From a virus (Duplodnaviria; Heunggongvirae; Uroviricota; Caudoviricetes): a DNA stretch of 36,787 bases. The position numbers and the translations under genes were made by a program. The stretch is from the IMG/VR virus record IMGVR_UViG_2541047684_000007; one strand, 5' to 3'. Positions 5,526 to 26,233 of this stretch are shown here, one piece after another. Every line of letters starts with the position of its first letter. Position 1 is the stretch's first letter. The notes under the pieces are model-generated. The model was given only the letters and a program-made list of their open reading frames with translations. It searched no databases and had not been told where the DNA came from.

Positions 5526-6202
5526 CGCCATTGCTCCCCAAATACAAAACTAATTTCAGCCAGTGCCTCGTCCATTTTTTCGATGAACTCCGGCACCATC
5601 TCGTCAAAACTCGCCATGTACTTTTCATCCCGCTCAACCACGACATAATGCAGTCCTTCACGCTTCATACGCGGGTCATAGTTGGCAAAGTACCAGGCAT
5701 CTTTTCGCGTCACCCACATGCTGTACTGCACCTGGGCCATGTAAGCCGATTTTATGGCCTCGAAACCACCGAGCCGGAACTTCATGAAATCCCGGGAGGT
5801 AAACGGGCATTTCAGCTCAAGGCCGTTGCCGTCACTGCATAAACCATCGGGAGAGCAGGCGGTGCGCATACTTTCGTCGCGATAGATGATCGGGGATTCA
5901 GTAACATTCACGCCGGAAGTAAACTCAAACAGGGCTCTGGCGTCGTTCTCGTACTGTTTTCCCCAAGCCAGCGCCTTAGCGTTAACTTCCGGAGCCACAC
6001 CGGTGCAAACCTCAGCAAGCAGGGTGTGGAAGTAGGACATTTTCATGTCAGGCCATTTCTTTCCGGAGCGGGGTTTTGCTATCACGTTGTGAACTTCTGA
6101 AGCGGTGATGACGCCGAGCCGTAATTTGTGCCATGCATCATCCCCCTGTTCGACAGCTCTCACGTCGATCCCGGTACGCTGCAGGATAATGTCCGGTGTC
6201 AT
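5522..6202 (-). CDS. exo: Lambda exonuclease (Red alpha)
   Basis: 226 aa, near-identical to lambda Exo ([38 protein letters not shown]...). ATGA overlap with the bet stop. Confidence 0.95.
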
Positions 6203-6984
6203 GCTGCCACCTTCTGCTCAGTGGCTTTCTGTTTCAGGAATCCAAGAGCTTTCACTGCTTCGGCCTGTGTCAGTTCTGACGATGCGCGAATGTCGCGGCG
6301 AAATATCTGGGAACAGAGCGGCAATAAGTCGTCATCCCATGTTTTATCCAGGGCGATCAGCAGAGTGTTAATCTCCTGCATGGTTTCATCGTTAACCGGA
6401 GTGATGTCGCGTTCCGGCTGACGTTCTGCAGTGTATGCGGTATTTTCGACAATGCGCTCGGCTTCATCCTTGTCATAGATACCAGCAAATCCGAAGGCGA
6501 GACGGGCACACTGAATCATGGCTTTATGCCGTAACATCCGTTTGGGATGCGACTGCCACGGCCCCGTGATTTCTCTGCCTTCGCGGGTTTTGAATGGTTC
6601 GCGGCGGCATTCATCCATCCACTCGGTAACGCAGATCGGATGATTGCGGTCTTTGCGGTAAATCCGGCATGTACATGATTCATTGTCCTGCTCAAAGTCC
6701 ATACCATCAAACTGCTGGTTTTCATTGATGATGCGGGACCAGCCATCAACGCCCACCACCGGAACAATGCCGTTCTGCTTATCAGGGAAGGCGTAAATTT
6801 CTTTCGTCCACGGATTAAGGCCGTACTGGTTGGCGACGATCAACAATGCGATGAACTGCGCATCGCTGGCATCACCTTTAAATGCCGTCTGGCGAAGAGT
6901 GGTGATCAGTTCCTGTGGGTCGACAGAATCCATGCCGACACGTTCAGCCAGCTTCCCTGCCAGCGTTGCGAGTGCTGTACTCAT
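6199..6984 (-). CDS. bet: Bet single-strand annealing protein (Red beta)
   Basis: 261 aa, near-identical to lambda Bet ([75 protein letters not shown]...). Confidence 0.95.
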
Positions 6985-7505: not shown

Positions 7506-7638
7506 TTTTTGGGACTCCTGGCTGATTAAGTATGTCGATAAGGCGTTTCCATCCGTCACGTAATTTACGGGTGATTCGTTCAAGTAAAGATTCGGAAGGG
7601 CAGCCAGCAACAGGCCACCCTGCAATGGCATATTGCAT
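7474..7638 (-). CDS. cIII: cIII (FtsH/HflB inhibitor, lysogeny regulator)
   Basis: Absent from the ORF track because it is only 54 aa. Manual translation of the minus strand from the ATG at 7636-7638 (SD AAGGAG) gives [54 protein letters not shown], which matches lambda CIII. Overlaps kil in another frame, as in lambda. Confidence 0.85.
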   Translation of the reverse strand: MQYAIAGWPVAGCPSESLLERITRKLRDGWKRLIDILNQPGVPKNGSNNYGYPD

Positions 7639-7710
7639 GGTGTGCTCCTTATTTATACATAACGAAAAACGCCTCGAGTGAAGCGTAATTGGTATGCGGT
7701 AACGCCGCGC

Positions 7711-17587: not shown

Positions 17588-18670
17588 TTAGAACTGATAA
17601 ACCAGACCTACAGCGACGATGTCGTCGGTATCAATACCAGCTGTTTTGGTAAACTTACTATCGTCAATTAAGTTGATTTTGTAATCAACAAAAGTGGACA
17701 TGTTTTTATTAAAGTAGTAAGTAGCACCGACATCGACATACTTGACTAAGTCTCGGTCACCATGAACACCAAGGTCTTTACCTTTTGACTGAAGGTAAGC
17801 AACAGATGGACGCAGACCGAAGTCAAACTGATATTGTGCTACTGCTTCAAAGTTTTGTGCTTTGTTTGCAATATGGTTATTATCAAAAACGGTCATATTC
17901 TGAGTTTCAGAATATGTGGTAGCCAGATAGATATTGTTCGCATCATATTTCAGGCCTGCAGCCCATACTTCCGCATTTTTGCCGGAGGCATTGAATTTGC
18001 TCTTACCATAGGCGACCTGACCGTCAGTGCGATCTGATTTAGCATAGGTTGCACCCACGCCGAATCCTTCATACTCATAAGTAGTGGAGAAACCGAAACC
18101 ATCACCATTGGCTTCAGTTACGTCAGTGCGGTCATTTTTACCCTGATACTGAGCAGCAAAGTTCAGGCCATCGACCAGACCAAAGAAGTCGTTGTTACGA
18201 TAAGTTGCAACACCAGTAGTGCGACCAGTCATGAACACATCTGTTTGGGTCCAGGTATCACCACCGAATTCTGGCAGAACGTCAGTCCACGCACCGATGT
18301 CGTATGCTACACCGTAGTTACGGCCGTAATCGATTGAGCCGTAATCACCAAATTTCAGGCCTGCAAATGCAAGACGGGTTTTGTCTTTGGAAGAACCTTG
18401 AGATTCAGCACGGTTGCCTTTGAATTCATATTCCCACTGACCGAAACCAGTCAGTTGATCGTTGATTTGGGTTTCACCTTTGAAGCCAAGACGGGCATAA
18501 GTAGTATCACCATCATCTGCATCATTAGAGGAGAAGTAGTGCTTGGCATTAACTTTCCCGTATAGATCCAGCTTGTTACTGTCTTTATTATAAATTTCAG
18601 CTGCCTGAGCAGACATCGCCATCAGTACTGATGCAGCTACAGCAGAAATTGCCACTGTTAATTTTTTCAT
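17588..18670 (-). CDS. nmpC: Outer-membrane general porin (NmpC/Lc/OmpC family), lysogenic-conversion moron
   Basis: 360 aa from the ATG at 18670. Signal peptide [23 protein letters not shown]. Near-identical to my recollection of DLP12 NmpC, with the typical porin C-terminus ...VAVGLVYQF. Opposite strand to the late operon; very AT-rich upstream region. Confidence 0.85.
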
Positions 18671-19107
18671 TGTACGCCCTTTTTTTGAACTTTTATTAAA
18701 AAATGATGTCACTGCGCGATAAATATTCATCTAATCAATGTGATTATTTCAAGATGTAAGTTTTAGTTTCTCATTTAATTTGTGAAGTAGATCTCTATTT
18801 TTATCTGAACCTTTTCTATCTAATCCTATTCATGGCTCTTGTCTGAACAAAAATAAATCTATTAGCTAATTTATATTAATGGCACTTATTTATAAGTGCT
18901 CTATAATTCTTTAGCTTAATTTAAACAAACTAAAAATAACATCGGAAATTATTAACTGGTTATTTGTTGAAGTTTTCTTATGCATTTGTGGTGGTGTTTT
19001 GAACACTCGGTGGCATTCTCACAAATATCATTTAGTAGTTTACGTACGTAAAAAATTGGTTATGCTGTTAAGAGTGGTTACTTCGTCACACAGCTTAAAC
19101 CCGCCGT

Positions 19108-19474: not shown

Positions 19475-19971
19475 TGCCTCCATCATTACGAAAAGCCGTT
19501 GCTGCTGCTATTGGTGGCGGAGCAATTGCTATAGCATCAGTGTTAATCACTGGCCCAAGTGGTAACGATGGTCTGGAAGGTGTCAGCTACATACCATACA
19601 AAGATATTGTTGGTGTATGGACTGTATGTCACGGGCATACAGGAAAAGACATCATGCTCGGTAAAACGTATACCAAAGCAGAATGCAAAGCCCTCCTGAA
19701 TAAAGACCTTGCCACGGTCGCCAGACAAATTAACCCGTACATCAAAGTCGATATACCGGAAACAATGCGCGGCGCTCTTTACTCATTCGTTTACAACGTG
19801 GGTGCTGGCAATTTCAGAACATCGACGCTTCTTCGCAAAATAAACCAGGGCGATATCAAAGGCGCATGTGATCAGCTACGTCGCTGGACATATGCTGGCG
19901 GTAAGCAATGGAAAGGTCTCATGACTCGTCGTGAGATTGAGCGTGAAATCTGTTTGTGGGGTCAGCAATGA
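19474..19971 (+). CDS. R: SAR endolysin (lysozyme, phage 21 R-type)
   Basis: 165 aa with N-terminal signal-anchor-release segment ([20 protein letters not shown]) followed by a lysozyme domain. Confidence 0.9.
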
Positions 19972-20429
19972 ACAGAGTAACCGCGATTATCTCCGCTCTG
20001 GTTATCTGCATCATCGTCTGCCTGTCATGGGCTGTTAATCATTACCGTGATAACGCCATTACCTACAAAGCCCAGCGCGACAAAAATGCCAGAGAACTGA
20101 CGCTGGCGAACGCGGCAATTACTGACATACAGATGCGTCAGCGTGATGTTGCTGCGCTCGATGCAAAATACACGAAGGAGTTAGCTGATGCGAAAGCTGA
20201 AAATGATGCTCTGCGTGATGATGTTGCCGCTGGTCGTCGTCGGTTGCACATCAAAGCAGTCTGTCAGTCAGTGCGTGAAGCCACCACCGCCTCCGGCGTG
20301 GATAATGCAGCCTCCCCCCGACTGGCAGACACCGCTGAACGGGATTATTTCACCCTCAGAGAGAGGCTGATCACTATGCAAAAACAACTGGAAGGAACCC
20401 AGAAGTATATTAATGAGCAGTGCAGATAG
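19968..20429 (+). CDS. Rz: Rz i-spanin
   Basis: ATG at 19968 overlapping the R stop. N-terminal transmembrane segment and coiled-coil, lambda Rz-like. Confidence 0.85.
20188..20370 (+). CDS. Rz1: Rz1 o-spanin lipoprotein, embedded in Rz in the +1 frame
   Basis: 60 aa with lipobox LVVVGC and proline-rich region ([16 protein letters not shown]), matching lambda Rz1. Confidence 0.8.
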
Positions 20430-20460
20430 AGCTGCCCATATCGATGGGCAACTCATGCAA

Positions 20461-20754
20461 TTATTGTGAGCAATACACACGCGCTTCCAGCGGAGTATAA
20501 ATGCCTAAAGTAATAAAACCGAGCAATCCATTTACGAATGTTTGCTGGGTTTCTGTTTTAACAACATTTTCTGCACCACCACAAATTTTTGCTGCATCGA
20601 CAGTTTTCTTCTGCCCAATTCCCGAAACGAAGAAATGATGGGTGATGGTTTCCTTTGGTGTTACTGCTGTAGGTTTGTTTCCAACAGTAAACGTCTGTTG
20701 AGCACATCCTGTAATAAGCATTGCCAGAGCGGCAGAAAACAACATTTTTTTCAT
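20461..20754 (-). CDS. bor: Bor lipoprotein (serum-resistance moron)
   Basis: 97 aa from MKKMLFSAALAMLITGC (lipobox), matching lambda Bor. Opposite strand to the late genes. Confidence 0.85.
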   Translation of the reverse strand: MKKMLFSAALAMLITGCAQQTFTVGNKPTAVTPKETITHHFFVSGIGQKKTVDAAKICGGAENVVKTETQQTFVNGLLGFITLGIYTPLEARVYCSQ

Positions 20755-21234
20755 CTTATTATCCTGCATTGTTAAAAACGGCAGAATCCTATGTGACAAC
20801 AATTAAACGATAGTTAAATGGATTGATGAAAATTAAAACTACACAGGTGGGCTCAGACTATTGGAGGAAGTTGGGGACACTCAGAATCCTGTGGAATGAA
20901 ATAAACCGGTCTATCCGTCCATTACCCTTTTAGCTGCGCTGTATCGTCGCCGTATTCCCGCATTAACCATGACCGTAGCCCGACGGGGAATTCCTTCTGC
21001 GTGAGTGTGCGGGAATAATTAAAAACGATGCACACCGGGTTTTTACCGCGTTAATGATTCGCGGGTTTATCCCGGTGCGATGGTGGAAGAAACAGGAAGC
21101 TGTATTACAGAAAGTGCTACTACTGTATCCCGATGCGATGTATGTAATGTGAGTCAGATAATGGCACAGGATGTGGTGATGTGGCAGTCTGGAACACAGG
21201 ATATATTGTCAGAATAAGACCCGTAGGAATAAAA

Positions 21235-21561
21235 ATGAAAAGACGCCTTTTACTACTTTTTCTGTTATCTGTCCTGGCAGTGGGATGCTCGCAGCAAAAA
21301 GCTGATGAGCCCCGGCAATTAGTGACGGTGTATCCACGATATCCGGAATATGCTGCAGCAAATTATATCAAGGGGCTGGTTGAGGTTAAGTTCGATATTG
21401 GTGCTGATGGGACTGTGACACGGATCGTTTTTCTCCGCTCAGAGCCTCATAATTTGTTTCGTGATGAAGTGGTGAAGGCCATGGCGAAATGGCGATTTGA
21501 AAAGAATCGCCCCTGTCAGGGAGTGAAGAGACAATTTATCTTTACGCCGTCACGTCCTTGA
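21235..21561 (+). CDS. Lipoprotein with TonB C-terminal-like domain
   Basis: ATG at 21235 (the track ORF starts at an upstream GTG). Signal peptide and lipobox MKRRLLLLFLLSVLAVGC. The segment VYPRYPEYAAANYIKGLVEVKFDIGADGTVTRIVFLRSEPHNLFRDEVVKAMAKWRFE fits the TonB_C pattern (YP...G.V.V.F.V..DG.V..V.V.......F...A..A...WRF). Confidence 0.6.
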   Translation: MKRRLLLLFLLSVLAVGCSQQKADEPRQLVTVYPRYPEYAAANYIKGLVEVKFDIGADGTVTRIVFLRSEPHNLFRDEVVKAMAKWRFEKNRPCQGVKRQFIFTPSRP

Positions 21562-21683: not shown

Positions 21684-22037
21684 TCATTTCTTCTTTTTCT
21701 CTGGTGGAACCCGATGAATAAGAGTTGCACTGGTTTCCGATGAGATGGCGATATACTCGGGCAAAGTATGCTGGCAGTTTTCCAACTGGTCAAAAATACC
21801 TGCTCTCGTCTGTTGCAATGCCTGCAGCATGCGGCGGCAATGCGCCTTGCTTTTACTAACCATCTTTCCTTCCTCTATCAGTCGCTGCGTGAACTCATCA
21901 TGGAATACCAGGTAAATGCGGATGTTATCGGTTTTGGCTACGCAGCATAGTACAAAACGGACAGGTGCATCCCGGGACGGGGGAGGCGTCACATGTCCCT
22001 GTGATGGTTGTTCCGGGTAATGTACTGTGTGGGGCAT
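21684..22037 (-). CDS. Hypothetical ORF (uncertain)
   Basis: 117-aa track ORF that overlaps the next minus-strand ORF by about 110 nt in a different frame. Possibly a frameshifted remnant. Confidence 0.3.
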   Translation of the reverse strand: MPHTVHYPEQPSQGHVTPPPSRDAPVRFVLCCVAKTDNIRIYLVFHDEFTQRLIEEGKMVSKSKAHCRRMLQALQQTRAGIFDQLENCQHTLPEYIAISSETSATLIHRVPPEKKKK

Positions 22038-22176: not shown

Positions 22177-22324
22177 TTGATGATGCCTCTGTGTGAAATG
22201 ACGGTAAACGACGCACTTGTGCCGGCACATAATAGCAAGCACCATAATAGATCAGATTCGATTCTTGCTGTAAGTGATAATTATTCTCGTTTTCGGGTCC
22301 TTTCCGTCGATCCAACAGGTTACG

Positions 22325-22512
22325 GGGCGGCGACCTCGCGGTTTTTCACTATTTATGAAAATTTTTCAGGGAAAATCGTGTCGGTACTTCTCGAATATAA
22401 CTTTTTGTTTTTTTTAATATTGCATCCGTAAAGGTCCGACATGAAAGTGTCCGAAAATGCCTTTTTCTGGCGTTTTCATGTCGGGCCTTGTATTTGATAA
22501 TGGGTTGTTTTC
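22325..22512. other. cos site: cosN cohesive-end sequence plus cosB
   Basis: GGGCGGCGACCT at about 22325-22336 is the lambda 12-nt cohesive end, and the flanking sequence parallels the lambda cos region. Inverted repeat GGTCCGACATGAAA / TTTCATGTCGGGCC at about 22433-22487, immediately upstream of nu1. Confidence 0.8.
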
Positions 22513-23061: not shown

Positions 23062-24961
23062 TGCAGCCGGTGCGATAGCTACAGGGCTTTTATCTCTCAT
23101 TATTCCTGTTCCACTGACGACAGTTCAGTGGGCCAATAAACATTATTACCTTCCTAAAGAGTCGTCTTATACCCCGGGGCGATGGGAAACACTGCCGTTT
23201 CAGGTTGGCATCATGAACTGTATGGGCAACGATCTGATTCGCACGGTTAACCTGATTAAATCTGCCCGTGTTGGTTATACAAAGATGTTGCTGGGAGTGG
23301 AGGCTTATTTTATTGAGCATAAATCACGCAACAGCCTTCTTTTTCAGCCCACGGACTCAGCTGCTGAAGATTTTATGAAATCTCATGTTGAGCCAACGAT
23401 AAGGGATGTTCCTGCATTGCTGGAGCTGGCTCCATGGTTCGGAAGAAAACACCGCGATAATACGCTCACCCTGAAGCGTTTTTCCTCCGGTGTGGGGTTC
23501 TGGTGTCTGGGTGGTGCGGCAGCAAAAAACTACCGTGAAAAATCCGTGGATGTGGTCTGTTATGACGAGCTTTCCTCGTTCGAACCGGATGTTGAAAAAG
23601 AGGGTTCGCCAACCCTGCTGGGGGATAAACGTATTGAGGGCTCTGTATGGCCAAAATCCATTCGCGGCTCGACGCCTAAAATCAAAGGCTCCTGCCAGAT
23701 CGAAAAAGCCGCTAACGAGTCGGCACACTTCATGCGTTTTTATGTGCCCTGTCCGCACTGTGGGGAGGAGCAGTATCTGAAATTTGGCGATGATGCCTCG
23801 CCTTTCGGTCTTAAGTGGGAGAAGAATAAGCCAGAAAGTGTTTTCTACCTTTGTGAGCATCATGGCTGTGTGATCCATCAGTCTGAGCTTGACCAGAGTA
23901 ACGGGCGGTGGATCTGTGAAAACACGGGCATGTGGACCCGTGACGGCCTGATGTTTTTCAGCGCCCGGGGTGATGAAATTCCGCCGCCGCGCTCCATCAC
24001 TTTCCATATCTGGACGGCGTACAGTCCGTTCACCACCTGGGTACAGATTGTCTATGACTGGCTGGATGCACTGAAAGATCCCAACGGCCTGAAAACCTTT
24101 GTGAACACCACGCTGGGCGAGACCTGGGAAGAGGCTGTGGGCGAAAAACTCGATCACCAGGTGCTGATGGATAAGGTTGTGCGTTACACGGCGGCGGTGC
24201 CTGCCCGGGTGGTTTATCTGACGGCGGGCATTGACTCGCAGCGAAACCGTTTTGAGATGTATGTCTGGGGATGGGCTCCGGGAGAGGAAGCCTTTCTGGT
24301 GGATAAAATCATCATTATGGGGCGTCCCGATGAGGAAGAGACGCTGTTACGTGTGGATGCGGCGATCAACAAAAAATACCGCCATGCGGATGGCACCGAA
24401 ATGACCATTTCCCGTGTCTGCTGGGACACCGGGGGGATCGATGGTGAAATCGTCTACCAGAGGTCAAAAAAACACGGTGTTTTCCGTGTGCTGCCGGTAA
24501 AAGGCGCGTCTGTCTATGGCAAGCCGGTGATCACCATGCCGAAAACCCGCAATCAGCGGGGCGTTTATCTGTGTGAAGTGGGGACGGACACCGCAAAAGA
24601 AATTCTCTATGCCCGTATGAAAGCCGAGCCCACGCCTGCGGATGAAGCCACGTCGTATGCCATCCGTTTTCCTGATGATCCGGAGATTTTTTCGCAGACA
24701 GAGGCGCAGCAACTGGTCGCGGAAGAGCTTGTGGAGAAGTGGGAAAAAGGAAAGATGCGTCTGCTGTGGGATAACAAAAAGCGGCGTAACGAAGCGCTGG
24801 ACTGCCTGGTGTATGCCTACGCGGCATTACGTGTGTCCGTGCAACGCTGGCAGCTTGATCTGGCTGTACTGGCAAAATCCCGGGAAGAAGAGACGACCCG
24901 GCCAACCCTTAAAGAACTGGCAGCGAAGCTGTCCGGAGGAGTGAATGGTTACAGTCGCTGA
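23033..24961 (+). CDS. A: Terminase large subunit A
   Basis: About 642 aa from the ATG at 23033, overlapping the Nu1 3' end as in lambda. Extensive similarity to lambda gpA (YYLPKES...GRWETLPFQ...KSARVGY...). Confidence 0.9.
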
Positions 24962-25151
24962 ACTGCAGGCGCTGCGTCAGGCGCGCCTTGATTTATTAAC
25001 CGGTAAACGGGTGGTGTCTGTCCAGAAAGATGGTCGAAGAATTGAATATACGGCGGCCTCTCTGGATGAGCTTAACCGGGCGATCAATGATGCGGAGTTG
25101 GTACTGGGGACAACCCGCCGTCGCCGTCGTCCGCTGGGAGTGAGGTTATGA
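24945..25151 (+). CDS. W: Head-tail joining protein W (copy 1)
   Basis: 68 aa, homologous to lambda W (...LLTGKRVVSVQKDGRRIEYTAASLDEL...). Confidence 0.85.
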   Translation: MVTVAELQALRQARLDLLTGKRVVSVQKDGRRIEYTAASLDELNRAINDAELVLGTTRRRRRPLGVRL

Positions 25152-26233
25152 AACGAACGCCTGTCCTGATTGATGTGAACGGCGTTCCGCTTCGTGAGAG
25201 TCTCAGCTACAACGGGGGCGGCGCAGGATTTGGCGGGCAAATGGCGGAGTGGTTGCCACCAGCGCAGAGTGCCGATGCAGCCCTGCTGCCTGCGTTGCGT
25301 CTGGGGAATGCCCGGGCAGATGATCTGGTGCGCAATAACGGGATAGCGGCTAATGCGGTGGCTCTGCATAAGGATCACATTGTCGGGCATATGTTTCTGA
25401 TCAGCTACCGTCCGAACTGGCGCTGGCTGGGGATGCGGGAGACCGCGGCAAAAAGCTTTGTCGATGAGGTGGAGGCGGCCTGGTCGGAATACGCCGAAGG
25501 GATGTTTGGCGAGATCGACGTGGAAGGAAAACGCACGTTCACGGAATTTATCCGTGAAGGTGTGGGCGTTCATGCGTTTAACGGCGAAATCTTTGTGCAG
25601 CCGGTCTGGGATACGGAAACCACGCAGTTATTCCGTACGCGTTTTAAAGCCGTGAGTCCGAAACGGGTGGACACGCCAGGACACGGTATGGGGAACCGTT
25701 TTCTGCGGGCCGGTGTGGAGGTCGATCGATATGGTCGTGCCGTTGCGTACCATATCTGTGAGGATGATTTTCCGTTCTCTGGTAGTGGACGATGGGAACG
25801 GATCCCGCGTGAACTTCCCACCGGGCGTCCGGCCATGCTGCATATTTTCGAGCCGGTGGAGGACGGGCAGACCCGTGGGGCTAATCAGTTTTACAGCGTC
25901 ATGGAACGGCTGAAGATGCTCGATTCCCTGCAGGCAACACAGCTTCAGTCGGCCATAGTGAAGGCGATGTATGCAGCGACGATTGAAAGTGAACTTGATA
26001 CCGAAAAGGCCTTTGAATATATCGCCGGCGCGCCACAGGAGCAGAAGGATAATCCGCTTATTAATATTCTGGAGAAGTTCTCCAGCTGGTATGACACGAA
26101 TAACGTGACACTGGGCGGTGTCAAAATTCCGCACCTTTTCCCTGGTGATGATCTGAAACTACAGACTGCGCAGGATTCATGGATAAGGTCGTGCATTACA
26201 CGGCGGCGGTGCCTGCCCGGGTGGTTTATCTGA
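25148..26233 (+). pseudogene. B: Truncated portal gene B (N-terminal ~344 codons), interrupted at the duplication junction
   Basis: Identical in-frame to the first ~344 aa of the intact portal at 27160..28752, then diverges at about 26179/26180 into out-of-frame terminase-A sequence, ending at a stop at 26233. Confidence 0.7.

What the first reader, a model, noticed from the sequence alone, without database searches (positions are those of the whole stretch)
20803..21561. Moron encoding a lipoprotein with a TonB C-terminal-like domain
ORF 21235..21561 has a lipoprotein signal (MKRRLLLLFLLSVLAVGC) followed directly by about 90 residues fitting the TonB C-terminal domain pattern (YPxYP...G.V.V.F.V..DG.V..V.......F...WRF), with no proline-rich spacer or inner-membrane anchor. 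An outer-membrane or periplasmic lipoprotein carrying only the TonB-box-binding domain could compete with host TonB for TonB-dependent receptors such as FhuA, FepA or BtuB, blocking TonB-dependent phages (T1, phi80 type) or colicins. This would parallel the known Cor and Llp exclusion lipoproteins in function but through a different fold.
Basis: partly seen in the sequence, partly recalled or inferred. Interest (0 to 1): 0.5.

Follow-up and report, generated by a model that had tools for sequence, protein, structure and literature searches.

The report
Prophage lipoprotein carrying only TonB's head
A small gene at the right end of a phage-21-like E. coli prophage encodes an outer-membrane lipoprotein that consists of little more than the receptor-docking domain of TonB. 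It is present in roughly 30% of complete E. coli genomes, is annotated only as "TonB family protein", and most plausibly acts as a decoy that dampens TonB-dependent entry of phages and bacteriocins, which has not been tested.

Summary
ORF 21235..21561 (+) encodes 108 aa: a lipoprotein signal peptide (LAVGC|S, Cys18, Ser at +2), an eight-residue tether and a TonB C-terminal domain (Pfam TonB_C 7e-13; E. coli TonB CTD 1e-14, 41% identity; AF2 model 1.0 A rmsd to TonB in the BtuB:TonB complex). There is no membrane anchor and no Pro-rich spacer.

The gene is real and under purifying selection (dN/dS 0.12 between two alleles). It is identical in classic phage 21, Nissle 1917 and UTI89. Allele A occurs in 1221 and allele B in 414 of 5426 complete E. 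coli genomes. It belongs to a subfamily of ~110-aa lipoprotein TonB_C proteins found after the lysis cassette in E. coli, Klebsiella and Serratia prophages, and chromosomally in Serratia grimesii.

The function is inferred, not shown. An OM-tethered, unenergisable TonB head should bind Ton boxes (or TonB) and act as a dominant-negative. Exported TonB fragments do this experimentally, and Llp shows that an OM lipoprotein can dock under FhuA.

"Moron" is only loosely right: no own promoter or terminator was found, and the gene is co-oriented with the late operon. Phage 21 uses LamB, so any exclusion would act against other phages. The domain call is already in the databases; I found no functional study.

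The parts
21235..21561 (+). CDS, 108 aa: lipoprotein with a TonB C-terminal domain (= WP_000830178, phage 21 CPT_21_73)
   Evidence: ORF list and sequence. Identical CDS annotated in Nissle 1917 and phage 21. dN/dS 0.12 against the 72%-identical allele.
21224..21228 (+). Shine-Dalgarno TAGGA, 6 nt before the ATG
   Evidence: Sequence read directly. Phage 21 annotators marked an RBS just upstream of the start codon.
21235..21288 (+). Signal peptide with lipobox LAVGC. The Cys18 codon is 21286-21288 and the +2 residue is Ser, which predicts outer-membrane sorting.
   Evidence: Regex lipobox test met in 23 of 30 family members, none with Asp at +2. The Lol sorting rule is established knowledge.
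21289..21309 (+). Short tether, residues 19-25 (SQQKADE), low model confidence
   Evidence: AF2 pLDDT <50 for residues 15-21. The distance from the lipidated Cys to the YP motif is 14 residues here and 14-25 in most of the family.
21310..21546 (+). TonB_C domain, residues 26-104 (corresponding to TonB 153-231): strand 28-30, helix 38-42, strands 47-55 and 61-70, helix 76-83, strand 94-103 (equivalent of the Ton-box-pairing strand beta3)
   Evidence: Pfam, NCBIfam and PDB matches. AF2 model and Foldseek hits to the TonB CTD.
21043..21234 (+). Leader that travels with the gene: conserved at ~71% in the allele-B module, not shared with lambda. The small ORF 21080-21217 is not conserved as a reading frame.
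   Evidence: blastn against JLK-2012 and lambda. Three-way alignment. No promoter-like site.
20935..21042 (+). Conserved structured element shared by many lambdoid phages. It is independent of the TonB_C gene and marks the recurrent left recombination boundary of the module.
   Evidence: 432 phage records. 98 of 120 sampled IMG/VR loci, only 10 of them with the TonB_C gene. RNAalifold pair counts. 98.7% standard pairs on the + strand against 86.7% on the - strand. Left breakpoint at 20935 in 25 loci.
20462..20757 (-). Neighbouring bor/iss lipoprotein gene (context; a true lysogen-expressed moron in lambda)
   Evidence: Pfam Lambda_Bor 1e-30. Annotated as Iss in Nissle and Bor in phage 21.
22324..22325 (.). 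cos cleavage position (right and left ends of the phage 21 virion DNA). The gene lies 763 bp from the right end.
   Evidence: The phage 21 record ends at window 22324 and restarts at 22325. cosQ is annotated just upstream.

Best explanation
The gene encodes a small lipoprotein that the Lol pathway places in the inner leaflet of the outer membrane. Its only folded part is a TonB C-terminal (receptor-docking) domain, held about 8 residues from the lipid anchor. It has no inner-membrane anchor and no contact with ExbB/ExbD, so it cannot transmit force. Sitting where the Ton boxes of TonB-dependent transporters emerge, it most likely pairs with them by beta-strand addition along its strand 94-103, as TonB does. 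It may also trap the head of host TonB. Either way it would compete with productive TonB docking. The expected result is a dominant-negative damping of all TonB-dependent gating. That would reduce irreversible adsorption of TonB-dependent phages (T1, phi80, H8 types) and uptake of group B colicins and siderophore-mimicking microcins, at some cost in siderophore and B12 uptake. Shown here: identity, fold, lipobox, purifying selection, prophage position and prevalence. Inferred: outer-membrane location, Ton-box binding, the inhibitory effect, and when the gene is expressed.
For: Domain and fold: (rmsd 1.0 A to TonB as bound to BtuB). The YP motif and the TonB aromatic residues are conserved. Lipobox with a non-Asp +2 residue and a uniformly short tether are conserved in relatives down to 37-46% identity. 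This argues that proximity to the outer membrane is part of the function. Strong purifying selection, dN/dS 0.12 at dS 1.5. The gene recurs at the accessory-gene hotspot after the lysis cassette in unrelated lambdoid backbones of E. coli, Klebsiella and Serratia. Experimental precedent that unanchored periplasmic TonB fragments abolish ferrichrome transport and cause iron-deficient growth. Precedent that an OM inner-leaflet phage lipoprotein reaches the periplasmic face of FhuA. The same phage lineage carries sitABCD, a metal importer that I know from prior knowledge to be TonB-independent, and a porin gene. These could offset a loss of TonB-dependent uptake; this is weak, lineage-confounded evidence.
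Against: There is no direct evidence of binding or of any phenotype. No own promoter or terminator was detected, so expression in lysogens is unproven, and late-only expression would give little time for exclusion. The 'Q160 region' of TonB, genetically linked to Ton-box recognition (my own knowledge), is not conserved: Q160 is Y33 or L33, R158 is T or K, and R166, which contacts the FhuA plug, is Y39. Two positions of the pairing strand are charged here (V225/V226 become K98/R99). The gene is carried by ExPEC strains such as UTI89, which from my own knowledge depend on TonB for virulence, so a strong constitutive inhibitor would be costly. A chromosomal copy in a housekeeping neighbourhood in Serratia grimesii hints at a physiological role that is not anti-phage. 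PADLOC has no matching defence family.
Confidence: 0.4

Rival explanations
1. Same outcome, different target. The lipoprotein heterodimerises with the C-terminal domain of host TonB and parks it at the outer membrane, titrating the scarce TonB rather than the abundant receptors.
For: TonB CTD fragments crystallise as dimers: 1u07 and 1qxx appear among the PDB matches. The aromatic residues implicated in TonB-TonB contacts (my own knowledge) are conserved. TonB is far less abundant than its receptors (established knowledge), so titrating it would need less protein.
Against: The model superposes best on the monomeric, receptor-bound conformation. The physiological relevance of CTD dimers is disputed.
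Confidence: 0.15
2. An envelope or lysis accessory protein: an outer-membrane lipoprotein whose TonB-like domain binds peptidoglycan or another envelope component. It is made late with the lysis genes and tunes envelope integrity or lysis. PHROGs labels the family 'Rz-like spanin'.
For: Full-length match to phrog_1267, category lysis. The gene always sits directly after the lysis cassette and is co-oriented with it, 42 nt after Rz1 in the Serratia prophage. No own promoter, so it is probably co-transcribed late. Binding of the TonB CTD to peptidoglycan has been reported (my own knowledge).
Against: The window already has a complete Rz/Rz1 pair at 19969-20430 and 20188-20370. The protein is a globular TonB fold with no C-terminal membrane helix and no Rz1-like Pro-rich peptide. 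In this window bor, on the opposite strand, separates it from the lysis genes. Serratia grimesii has a chromosomal copy with no lysis genes nearby. The PHROG label is probably positional mis-annotation.
Confidence: 0.12
3. A decoy for incoming Ton-box-bearing toxins rather than for receptors. It captures the N-terminal Ton boxes of group B colicins or pyocin-like bacteriocins as they thread into the periplasm, and so protects the lysogen in bacterial warfare with little effect on nutrient uptake.
For: The same structural arguments as for Ton-box binding. Gut E. coli are exposed to colicins and microcins. The gene is common in commensal and ExPEC lineages.
Against: Nothing in the sequence distinguishes colicin Ton boxes from receptor Ton boxes, so a domain that binds one should bind the other. 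Untested.
Confidence: 0.1
4. A host-interaction or virulence factor, or a positive modulator of a specific transporter, unrelated to exclusion. This would resemble the neighbouring Bor/Iss serum-resistance lipoprotein.
For: It lies next to bor/iss and in the same prophage as a porin gene and, beyond the window, sitABCD. It is enriched in strains such as UTI89, Nissle and O157.
Against: The predicted topology faces the periplasm and there is no surface-exposure signal. The domain is known only from periplasmic energy-transduction proteins.
Confidence: 0.08
5. A decaying fragment of a captured tonB gene with no function (annotations such as 'TonB fragment' and 'partial tonB-like membrane protein').
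For: Database names used by several annotators. Some truncated or frameshifted copies exist.
Against: dN/dS 0.12 with saturated synonymous change. The lipobox and domain are conserved down to 37-46% identity in several genera. In a neighbour-joining tree the phage alleles group with stand-alone lipoproteins, not with enterobacterial TonB. 1203 genomes carry it at >=99% identity and mostly intact.
Confidence: 0.03

Closest known systems
TonB of E. coli (C-terminal domain, residues ~150-239; PDB 1u07, 1xx3, 2gsk, 2grx)
   Same: Same fold (rmsd ~1 A) and 41% identity over 81 residues. The YP motif, F180, F202, W213, Y215 (as F) and F230 are kept, as is the edge strand that pairs with Ton boxes.
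   Different: No N-terminal membrane helix, no Pro-rich rod and no ExbBD coupling. It is anchored to the opposite (outer) membrane by a lipid. Only five residues follow the pairing strand, against nine in TonB. The Q160 region and R166 are not conserved. It scores far below the TonB equivalog cut-offs (69 against 315 bits).
Engineered periplasmic TonB fragments (33-239, 103-239, 122-239) used as dominant-negative inhibitors
   Same: An unenergised TonB head in the periplasm. These fragments block ferrichrome transport and cause iron-deficient growth. This is the mechanism proposed for the phage protein.
   Different: The fragments are soluble, overexpressed and artificial, and they carry extra spacer sequence that may also disturb ExbD-TonB contacts. 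The phage protein is natural, minimal and lipid-tethered at the outer membrane.
Llp of phage T5 and Cor of phi80/N15/HK022 (exclusion lipoproteins acting on FhuA)
   Same: Small phage-encoded lipoproteins of the outer-membrane inner leaflet that act on a TonB-dependent transporter from the periplasmic side.
   Different: No sequence or fold relationship. Llp and Cor are specific for FhuA, which is their own phage's receptor. The TonB_C lipoprotein would be receptor-generic, and its carrier phage 21 uses LamB.
Bor/Iss and Lom (lambdoid lysogenic-conversion outer-membrane proteins)
   Same: Accessory envelope proteins encoded in or next to the late region of lambdoid prophages. bor is the immediate neighbour.
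   Different: bor is transcribed against the late operon and is described as expressed in lysogens. The TonB_C gene is co-oriented with the late operon and has no detectable promoter.
Specialised TonB paralogues (HasB, FusB, TonB2)
   Same: TonB_C domains dedicated to particular partners. FusB CTD (7zc8) and TonB2 (2k9k) are among the sequence matches, and FusB, TonB2 and HasB CTD (2m2k, weak, E 0.06) among the structural matches.
   Different: From my own knowledge, all of these keep the inner-membrane anchor and work with an ExbBD-type motor. None is a lipoprotein.

Membership tests
TonB_C domain (Pfam PF03544 / TIGR01352) | Profile match above the curated cut-off | tested here: met
   PF03544 49.2 bits (cut-off 24.6), E 7.3e-13. 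TIGR01352 47.4 bits (cut-off 27.1).
TonB_C domain (Pfam PF03544 / TIGR01352) | Three-stranded sheet plus two helices as in solved TonB CTDs | tested here: met
   AF2 model with pLDDT >90 over the domain. Foldseek hits to 1u07, 2gsk_B and 1xx3 at rmsd 0.8-1.1 A, probability 1.00.
TonB energy transducer (TonB proper, NCBIfam PRK10819 equivalogs) | Full-length match above the equivalog cut-off | tested here: not met
   Best score 69.2 bits against a cut-off of 315. Only model positions 156-240 are matched.
TonB energy transducer (TonB proper, NCBIfam PRK10819 equivalogs) | N-terminal inner-membrane helix and Pro-rich periplasmic spacer | tested here: not met
   108 aa in all. The only hydrophobic segment is the cleavable signal peptide, and 8 residues separate Cys18 from the start of the domain.
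Bacterial lipoprotein (Lgt/LspA/Lnt substrate, Lol-sorted to the outer membrane) | Basic n-region, hydrophobic h-region, lipobox [LVI..][AST..][GAS]C, non-Asp at +2 | tested here: met
   MKRR-LLLLFLLSVL-AVGC|S. The PROSITE-type regex matches in 23 of 30 relatives, none with Asp at +2.
Bacterial lipoprotein (Lgt/LspA/Lnt substrate, Lol-sorted to the outer membrane) | Actual lipidation and outer-membrane location | not testable with these tools
   Needs globomycin or palmitate labelling and membrane fractionation.
Moron (autonomous accessory transcription unit in a phage genome) | Gene dispensable for lytic growth, present in some relatives and absent in others at the same position | tested here: met
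   Lambda has a different segment between the conserved element and cos. Only 10 of 98 sampled loci that have the upstream element carry the gene.
Moron (autonomous accessory transcription unit in a phage genome) | Own promoter and terminator flanking the gene | tested here: not met
   The consensus scan finds no + strand promoter between 20400 and 22472 and no + strand terminator-like site until 22032, about 470 nt past the stop codon. A simple scan cannot exclude weak or non-sigma-70 signals.
Cor / Llp superinfection-exclusion lipoproteins | Homology or shared fold with Llp or Cor | tested here: not met
   Pfam returns only TonB_C at E<=1. There is no BFVD viral structure match at E<=0.001, whereas the Llp fold is reported to hit many BFVD proteins.
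Cor / Llp superinfection-exclusion lipoproteins | Inactivates the carrier phage's own receptor | tested here: not met
   Phage 21, with the identical gene, uses LamB, which is not TonB-dependent.
Spanin (PHROG 1267 label 'Rz-like spanin') | o-spanin: short Pro-rich lipoprotein embedded in or overlapping an i-spanin gene. u-spanin: lipobox plus a C-terminal membrane helix. | tested here: not met
   Rz and Rz1 are present elsewhere (19969-20430, 20188-20370). The protein is a globular TonB fold with no C-terminal hydrophobic segment.
Known anti-phage defence systems (PADLOC-DB) | Match to any defence-protein model | tested here: not met
   No family at E<=1.

The most novel reading that the evidence does not exclude
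Lambdoid prophages in about 30% of complete E. coli genomes, including phage 21, Nissle 1917, UTI89 and O157:H7, carry a natural TonB mimic: a lipid-anchored, motor-less TonB head parked under the outer membrane. It acts as a generic brake on every TonB-dependent gate, giving broad cross-protection against TonB-dependent phages, group B colicins and siderophore-microcins. In the phage-21 lineage the cost would be buffered by prophage-borne TonB-independent metal import (sitABCD) and an extra porin. This would be a receptor-generic, energy-coupling-targeted form of exclusion, distinct from receptor-specific Cor and Llp.
Probability: 0.3. Interest if true: 0.75.

Novelty: new variant of a known kind. 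Interest (0 to 1): 0.55.

Why it matters
If the protein is a dominant-negative TonB mimic, a very common prophage gene would modulate three things at once in E. coli: susceptibility to TonB-dependent phages, which matters for phage therapy and host-range prediction; sensitivity to colicins, microcins and siderophore-antibiotic conjugates such as cefiderocol-type 'Trojan horses'; and iron or B12 acquisition in commensal, probiotic (Nissle) and pathogenic (UTI89, O157) strains. It would also be a natural minimal inhibitor of TonB-receptor coupling, an interaction already pursued as an antibiotic target (papers listed). Even if the mechanism is wrong, the gene is a widespread, conserved, uncharacterised envelope protein in one of the oldest model phages. 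The experiments to test it are simple.

Tried and rejected
- **Fur box upstream.** This would have tied the gene to iron regulation. The best match in 20758-21300 is 11 of 19 to the consensus, which is common by chance in this window. Rejected.
- **Own sigma-70 promoter or intrinsic terminator.** None found on the + strand next to the gene. Comparing the two alleles by eye showed conserved GATAAT and ATTGTYAGAATAAGAC blocks but no acceptable -35 element. Left open.
- **Upstream ORF 21080-21217** (annotated in phage 21 as hypothetical). The reading frame is not conserved in the allele-B module (stop after about 21 codons, read), and there is no PHROG hit. Judged spurious.
- **Rfam.** No family matches the interval. 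The only Rfam hit in the whole window is the cIII thermoregulator.
- **Literature.** Searches for a characterised phage-encoded TonB or TonB-like lipoprotein, the accession WP_000830178, and 'phage 21' with TonB gave nothing relevant. The phage 21 genome announcement does not mention the gene. The original report on inhibitory TonB fragments (PubMed 11566987) is not held. It was cited through a preprint that describes and reproduces the result.
- **Link with sitABCD.** All allele-A phage records, seven in all, have sitA. About twenty sit-bearing lambda-like phage records lack the gene, and the allele-B and Klebsiella phage records lack sit. The association is lineage-confounded, so I treat it only as a hint.
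Full report
**1. What is there**

The window is a lambdoid prophage, essentially identical to Escherichia phage PhiR57_1 from ECOR13 (99.7% over window 12000-36787). Its late region is 99.4% identical to that of classic phage 21. Around the finding the gene order is Q, a porin gene on the minus strand, S, R, Rz/Rz1, bor/iss on the minus strand, the ORF in question, two or three small doubtful ORFs, cos, and Nu1/A.

It starts with ATG preceded by TAGGA six bases upstream, ends with TGA, and encodes 108 codons. One deposited annotation starts it at an upstream GTG (21182). RefSeq and the phage 21 annotators use the ATG, and I follow them because of the ribosome-binding site and the canonical signal peptide.

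**2. Identity of the protein**

- Residues 1-18 are a lipoprotein signal: MKRR, a Leu-rich core, and the lipobox LAVGC with Ser at +2.
- Residues 26-104 are a TonB C-terminal domain. The matches are Pfam PF03544 at E 7.3e-13, TIGR01352 above its cut-off, and E. coli TonB CTD chains at E~1e-14. Query residue n aligns with TonB residue n+127, and 33 of 81 residues are identical.
- An AlphaFold2 model built on 16 relatives has pLDDT >90 across the domain. Its best structural matches are E. coli TonB CTD chains, including the one bound to BtuB (2gsk_B), at about 1.0 A rmsd.
- TonB's YP motif and its aromatic residues are kept.
- There is no inner-membrane helix and no Pro-rich rod. The TonB equivalog models score far below their cut-offs.

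So the protein is a member of the TonB_C domain family but is not a TonB.

**3. Is it a real gene?**

Yes. A second allele, 72% identical in protein, sits in Stx1a phages and in phage JLK-2012. Between the two alleles dN/dS is 0.12 while synonymous sites are near saturation (dS 1.5).

More distant relatives (37-46% identity) have the same architecture: about 110 aa, a lipobox, a 14-25-residue distance from the lipidated Cys to the YP motif, and never Asp at +2. They occur in several settings:
- a Klebsiella phage and Klebsiella genomes;
- a Serratia montpellierensis prophage, between lysozyme/spanin-like genes and the small terminase;
- Shimwellia, Raoultella and Erwinia;
- a housekeeping chromosomal neighbourhood in Serratia grimesii, flanked by a ycgN-like gene, dsbB, nhaB and fadR.

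In a neighbour-joining tree the phage alleles group with these stand-alone lipoproteins and apart from enterobacterial TonB CTDs (no bootstrap, so indicative only). Shared motifs such as SEPxxLFD and YPxYA replace TonB's AKPANMFE and YPARA. The label "TonB fragment" is therefore misleading. This is a distinct subfamily, not debris of the host tonB gene.

**4. Prevalence and what is already known**

- The identical gene is CPT_21_73 of phage 21, annotated "TonB C-terminal domain protein". It is WP_000830178, "TonB family protein", in Nissle 1917.
- Allele A is in 1221 of 5426 complete E. coli genomes, including UTI89 and the type strain. Allele B is in 414, including O157:H7 and O55:H7.
- 218 IMG/VR viral contigs encode a relative.

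The domain call is therefore already in public annotation. I found no functional study in seven full-text searches. The phage 21 genome announcement does not discuss the gene. PADLOC has no model for it. PHROGs has a full-length family, phrog_1267, labelled "Rz-like spanin". I judge this label to be positional mis-annotation, because the window has its own Rz/Rz1, the protein is a globular TonB fold, and it lacks a C-terminal membrane helix.

**5. Genomic anatomy**

Compared with lambda, homology runs through bor to 20808. It resumes for a conserved element at 20932-21042, then is lost until the cos region (22269-22324). The allele-B module shares 20935-21544 at 71%.

Across 80 IMG/VR loci the commonest left breakpoint is 20935, seen in 25 loci. 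The commonest right breakpoint is about 22365-22375, just past cos at 22324/22325. The gene therefore travels in a ~1.4-kb module that begins at a conserved element and ends at cos. It lies 763 bp from the right end of the virion DNA.

I found no + strand sigma-70 promoter and no terminator next to the gene, no Fur box, and no distinctive GC content. The gene is co-oriented with the late operon. It is an accessory gene at the classic moron hotspot, but an autonomous transcription unit is not demonstrated. Expression in lysogens is an open question.

**6. Mechanism**

Shown here: a TonB receptor-docking domain, a lipoprotein signal that predicts outer-membrane sorting, and a conserved short tether.

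Established from the literature:
- TonB's C-terminal domain binds the Ton box of ligand-loaded transporters by strand addition.
- Exporting TonB fragments without the membrane anchor to the periplasm abolishes ferrichrome transport and causes iron-deficient growth.
- T5 Llp, an acylated lipoprotein of the outer-membrane inner leaflet, docks on the periplasmic face of FhuA, a surface that TonB partly occludes.

Inference: the phage protein sits under the outer membrane, binds Ton boxes and/or the TonB head, cannot pull, and so damps TonB-dependent gating. That would lower sensitivity to TonB-dependent phages and to group B colicins and microcins, at a cost in siderophore and B12 uptake. I give this 0.4. 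I give a further 0.15 to the TonB-titration variant and 0.1 to a decoy for colicin Ton boxes. All three share the same core idea.

Points against the inference:
- The TonB Q160 region and R166 are not conserved, and two residues of the pairing strand are charged.
- There is no evidence of expression in lysogens.
- ExPEC strains that need TonB for virulence (my own knowledge) carry the gene.
- A chromosomal Serratia copy suggests a housekeeping role.

Because phage 21 uses LamB, any exclusion would act against other phages and could not be self-exclusion.

**7. Comparison and novelty**

By the proposed mechanism the protein would work like the engineered dominant-negative TonB fragments. By ecological role it would resemble Cor and Llp. 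It is a member of neither exclusion family: the fold differs and no viral structure matches it. It is not a TonB, not a spanin and not a known defence protein.

I rate it a new variant of a known kind: a phage outer-membrane lipoprotein acting on TonB-dependent transport, but through mimicry of the energy transducer and therefore receptor-generic. This holds if the inference is right. The bare observation, a TonB_C lipoprotein in prophages, is already in the databases.

**8. Seen in passing**

- The conserved element at 20935-21042 occurs in 432 phage records, including lambda and Stx phages, always after the lysis genes and mostly without the TonB_C gene.
  - It folds into a long hairpin (UAUUCCCGCA...UGCGGGAAUA) that encloses a smaller one.
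  - Across 23 distinct copies, 3 pairs show double compensatory changes and many show G-U-compatible single changes.
  - Standard pairing is 98.7% on the + strand against 86.7% on the - strand. This points to an RNA structure on the late transcript.
  - Rfam has no matching family.
- The full phage, and phage 21 itself, also carry sitABCD beyond the window. A porin gene lies at 17589-18731.

Noticed in passing
window 20935-21042 (+), extending weakly to ~21100: A conserved non-coding element found in 432 phage records (lambda 46865-46974, Stx1/Stx2 phages, a Salmonella phage), always downstream of the lysis cassette and mostly without the TonB_C gene. It folds into a long hairpin enclosing a smaller one. 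There are 3 compensatory pairs and many G-U-compatible changes, and pairing is 98.7% on the + strand against 86.7% on the - strand, which suggests an RNA structure on the late transcript. It has no Rfam family. It is also the recurrent left recombination breakpoint of the TonB_C module.
   Followed up: partly
locus L018 (PV340572.1) 44298-47747, beyond the window's end; also phage 21 OL657228 ~24505-25416: The same phage, and classic phage 21 itself, carry sitABCD (an Fe/Mn ABC importer that I know from prior knowledge to be TonB-independent) next to the tail-fibre genes. All allele-A TonB_C phage records, seven in all, have sitA, but about twenty sit-bearing lambda-like phage records lack TonB_C. 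The link is therefore confounded by shared lineage.
   Followed up: partly
window 17589-18731 (-): A porin gene (annotated OmpD / 'porin OmpC', NmpC-like) sits between Q and the holin gene on the opposite strand. It is a second envelope-modifying accessory gene in this prophage.
   Followed up: no
window 21684-21863 (-), within the longer ORF 21684-22037: The C-terminal 59 codons of this minus-strand ORF match phrog_4843 (unknown function) over its full length at E 3e-46. RefSeq and the phage 21 annotators instead call a 60-aa + strand ORF at 21768-21950. Which strand codes is unresolved.
   Followed up: partly
PHROGs family phrog_1267 (database, hit by window 21235-21561): The PHROG family that holds these TonB_C lipoproteins is labelled 'Rz-like spanin' (category lysis). 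Some RefSeq phage records also carry a 'Rz-like spanin' annotation over the conserved upstream element in this region, which may be related. The label appears to be mis-annotation.
   Followed up: partly
locus L011 (Serratia grimesii NBRC 13537) 5989-6315: A chromosomal, non-prophage member of the same lipoprotein TonB_C subfamily lies between a ycgN-like gene and dsbB/nhaB/fadR. This suggests that the phage genes derive from, or share a role with, a bacterial housekeeping lipoprotein of unknown function.
   Followed up: partly
window 7593-7651 (-): The lambda cIII thermoregulator RNA element (Rfam RF01804, 88.5 bits) is the only Rfam family above threshold in the window. The window has no tRNA genes, whereas phage 21 has two after pR'.
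   Followed up: no
proteins P0050, P0056, P0060 and others: Many database proteins of 300-900 aa contain 3-6 tandem TonB_C-like stretches. This multi-domain architecture is quite unlike TonB. I did not examine it.
   Followed up: no
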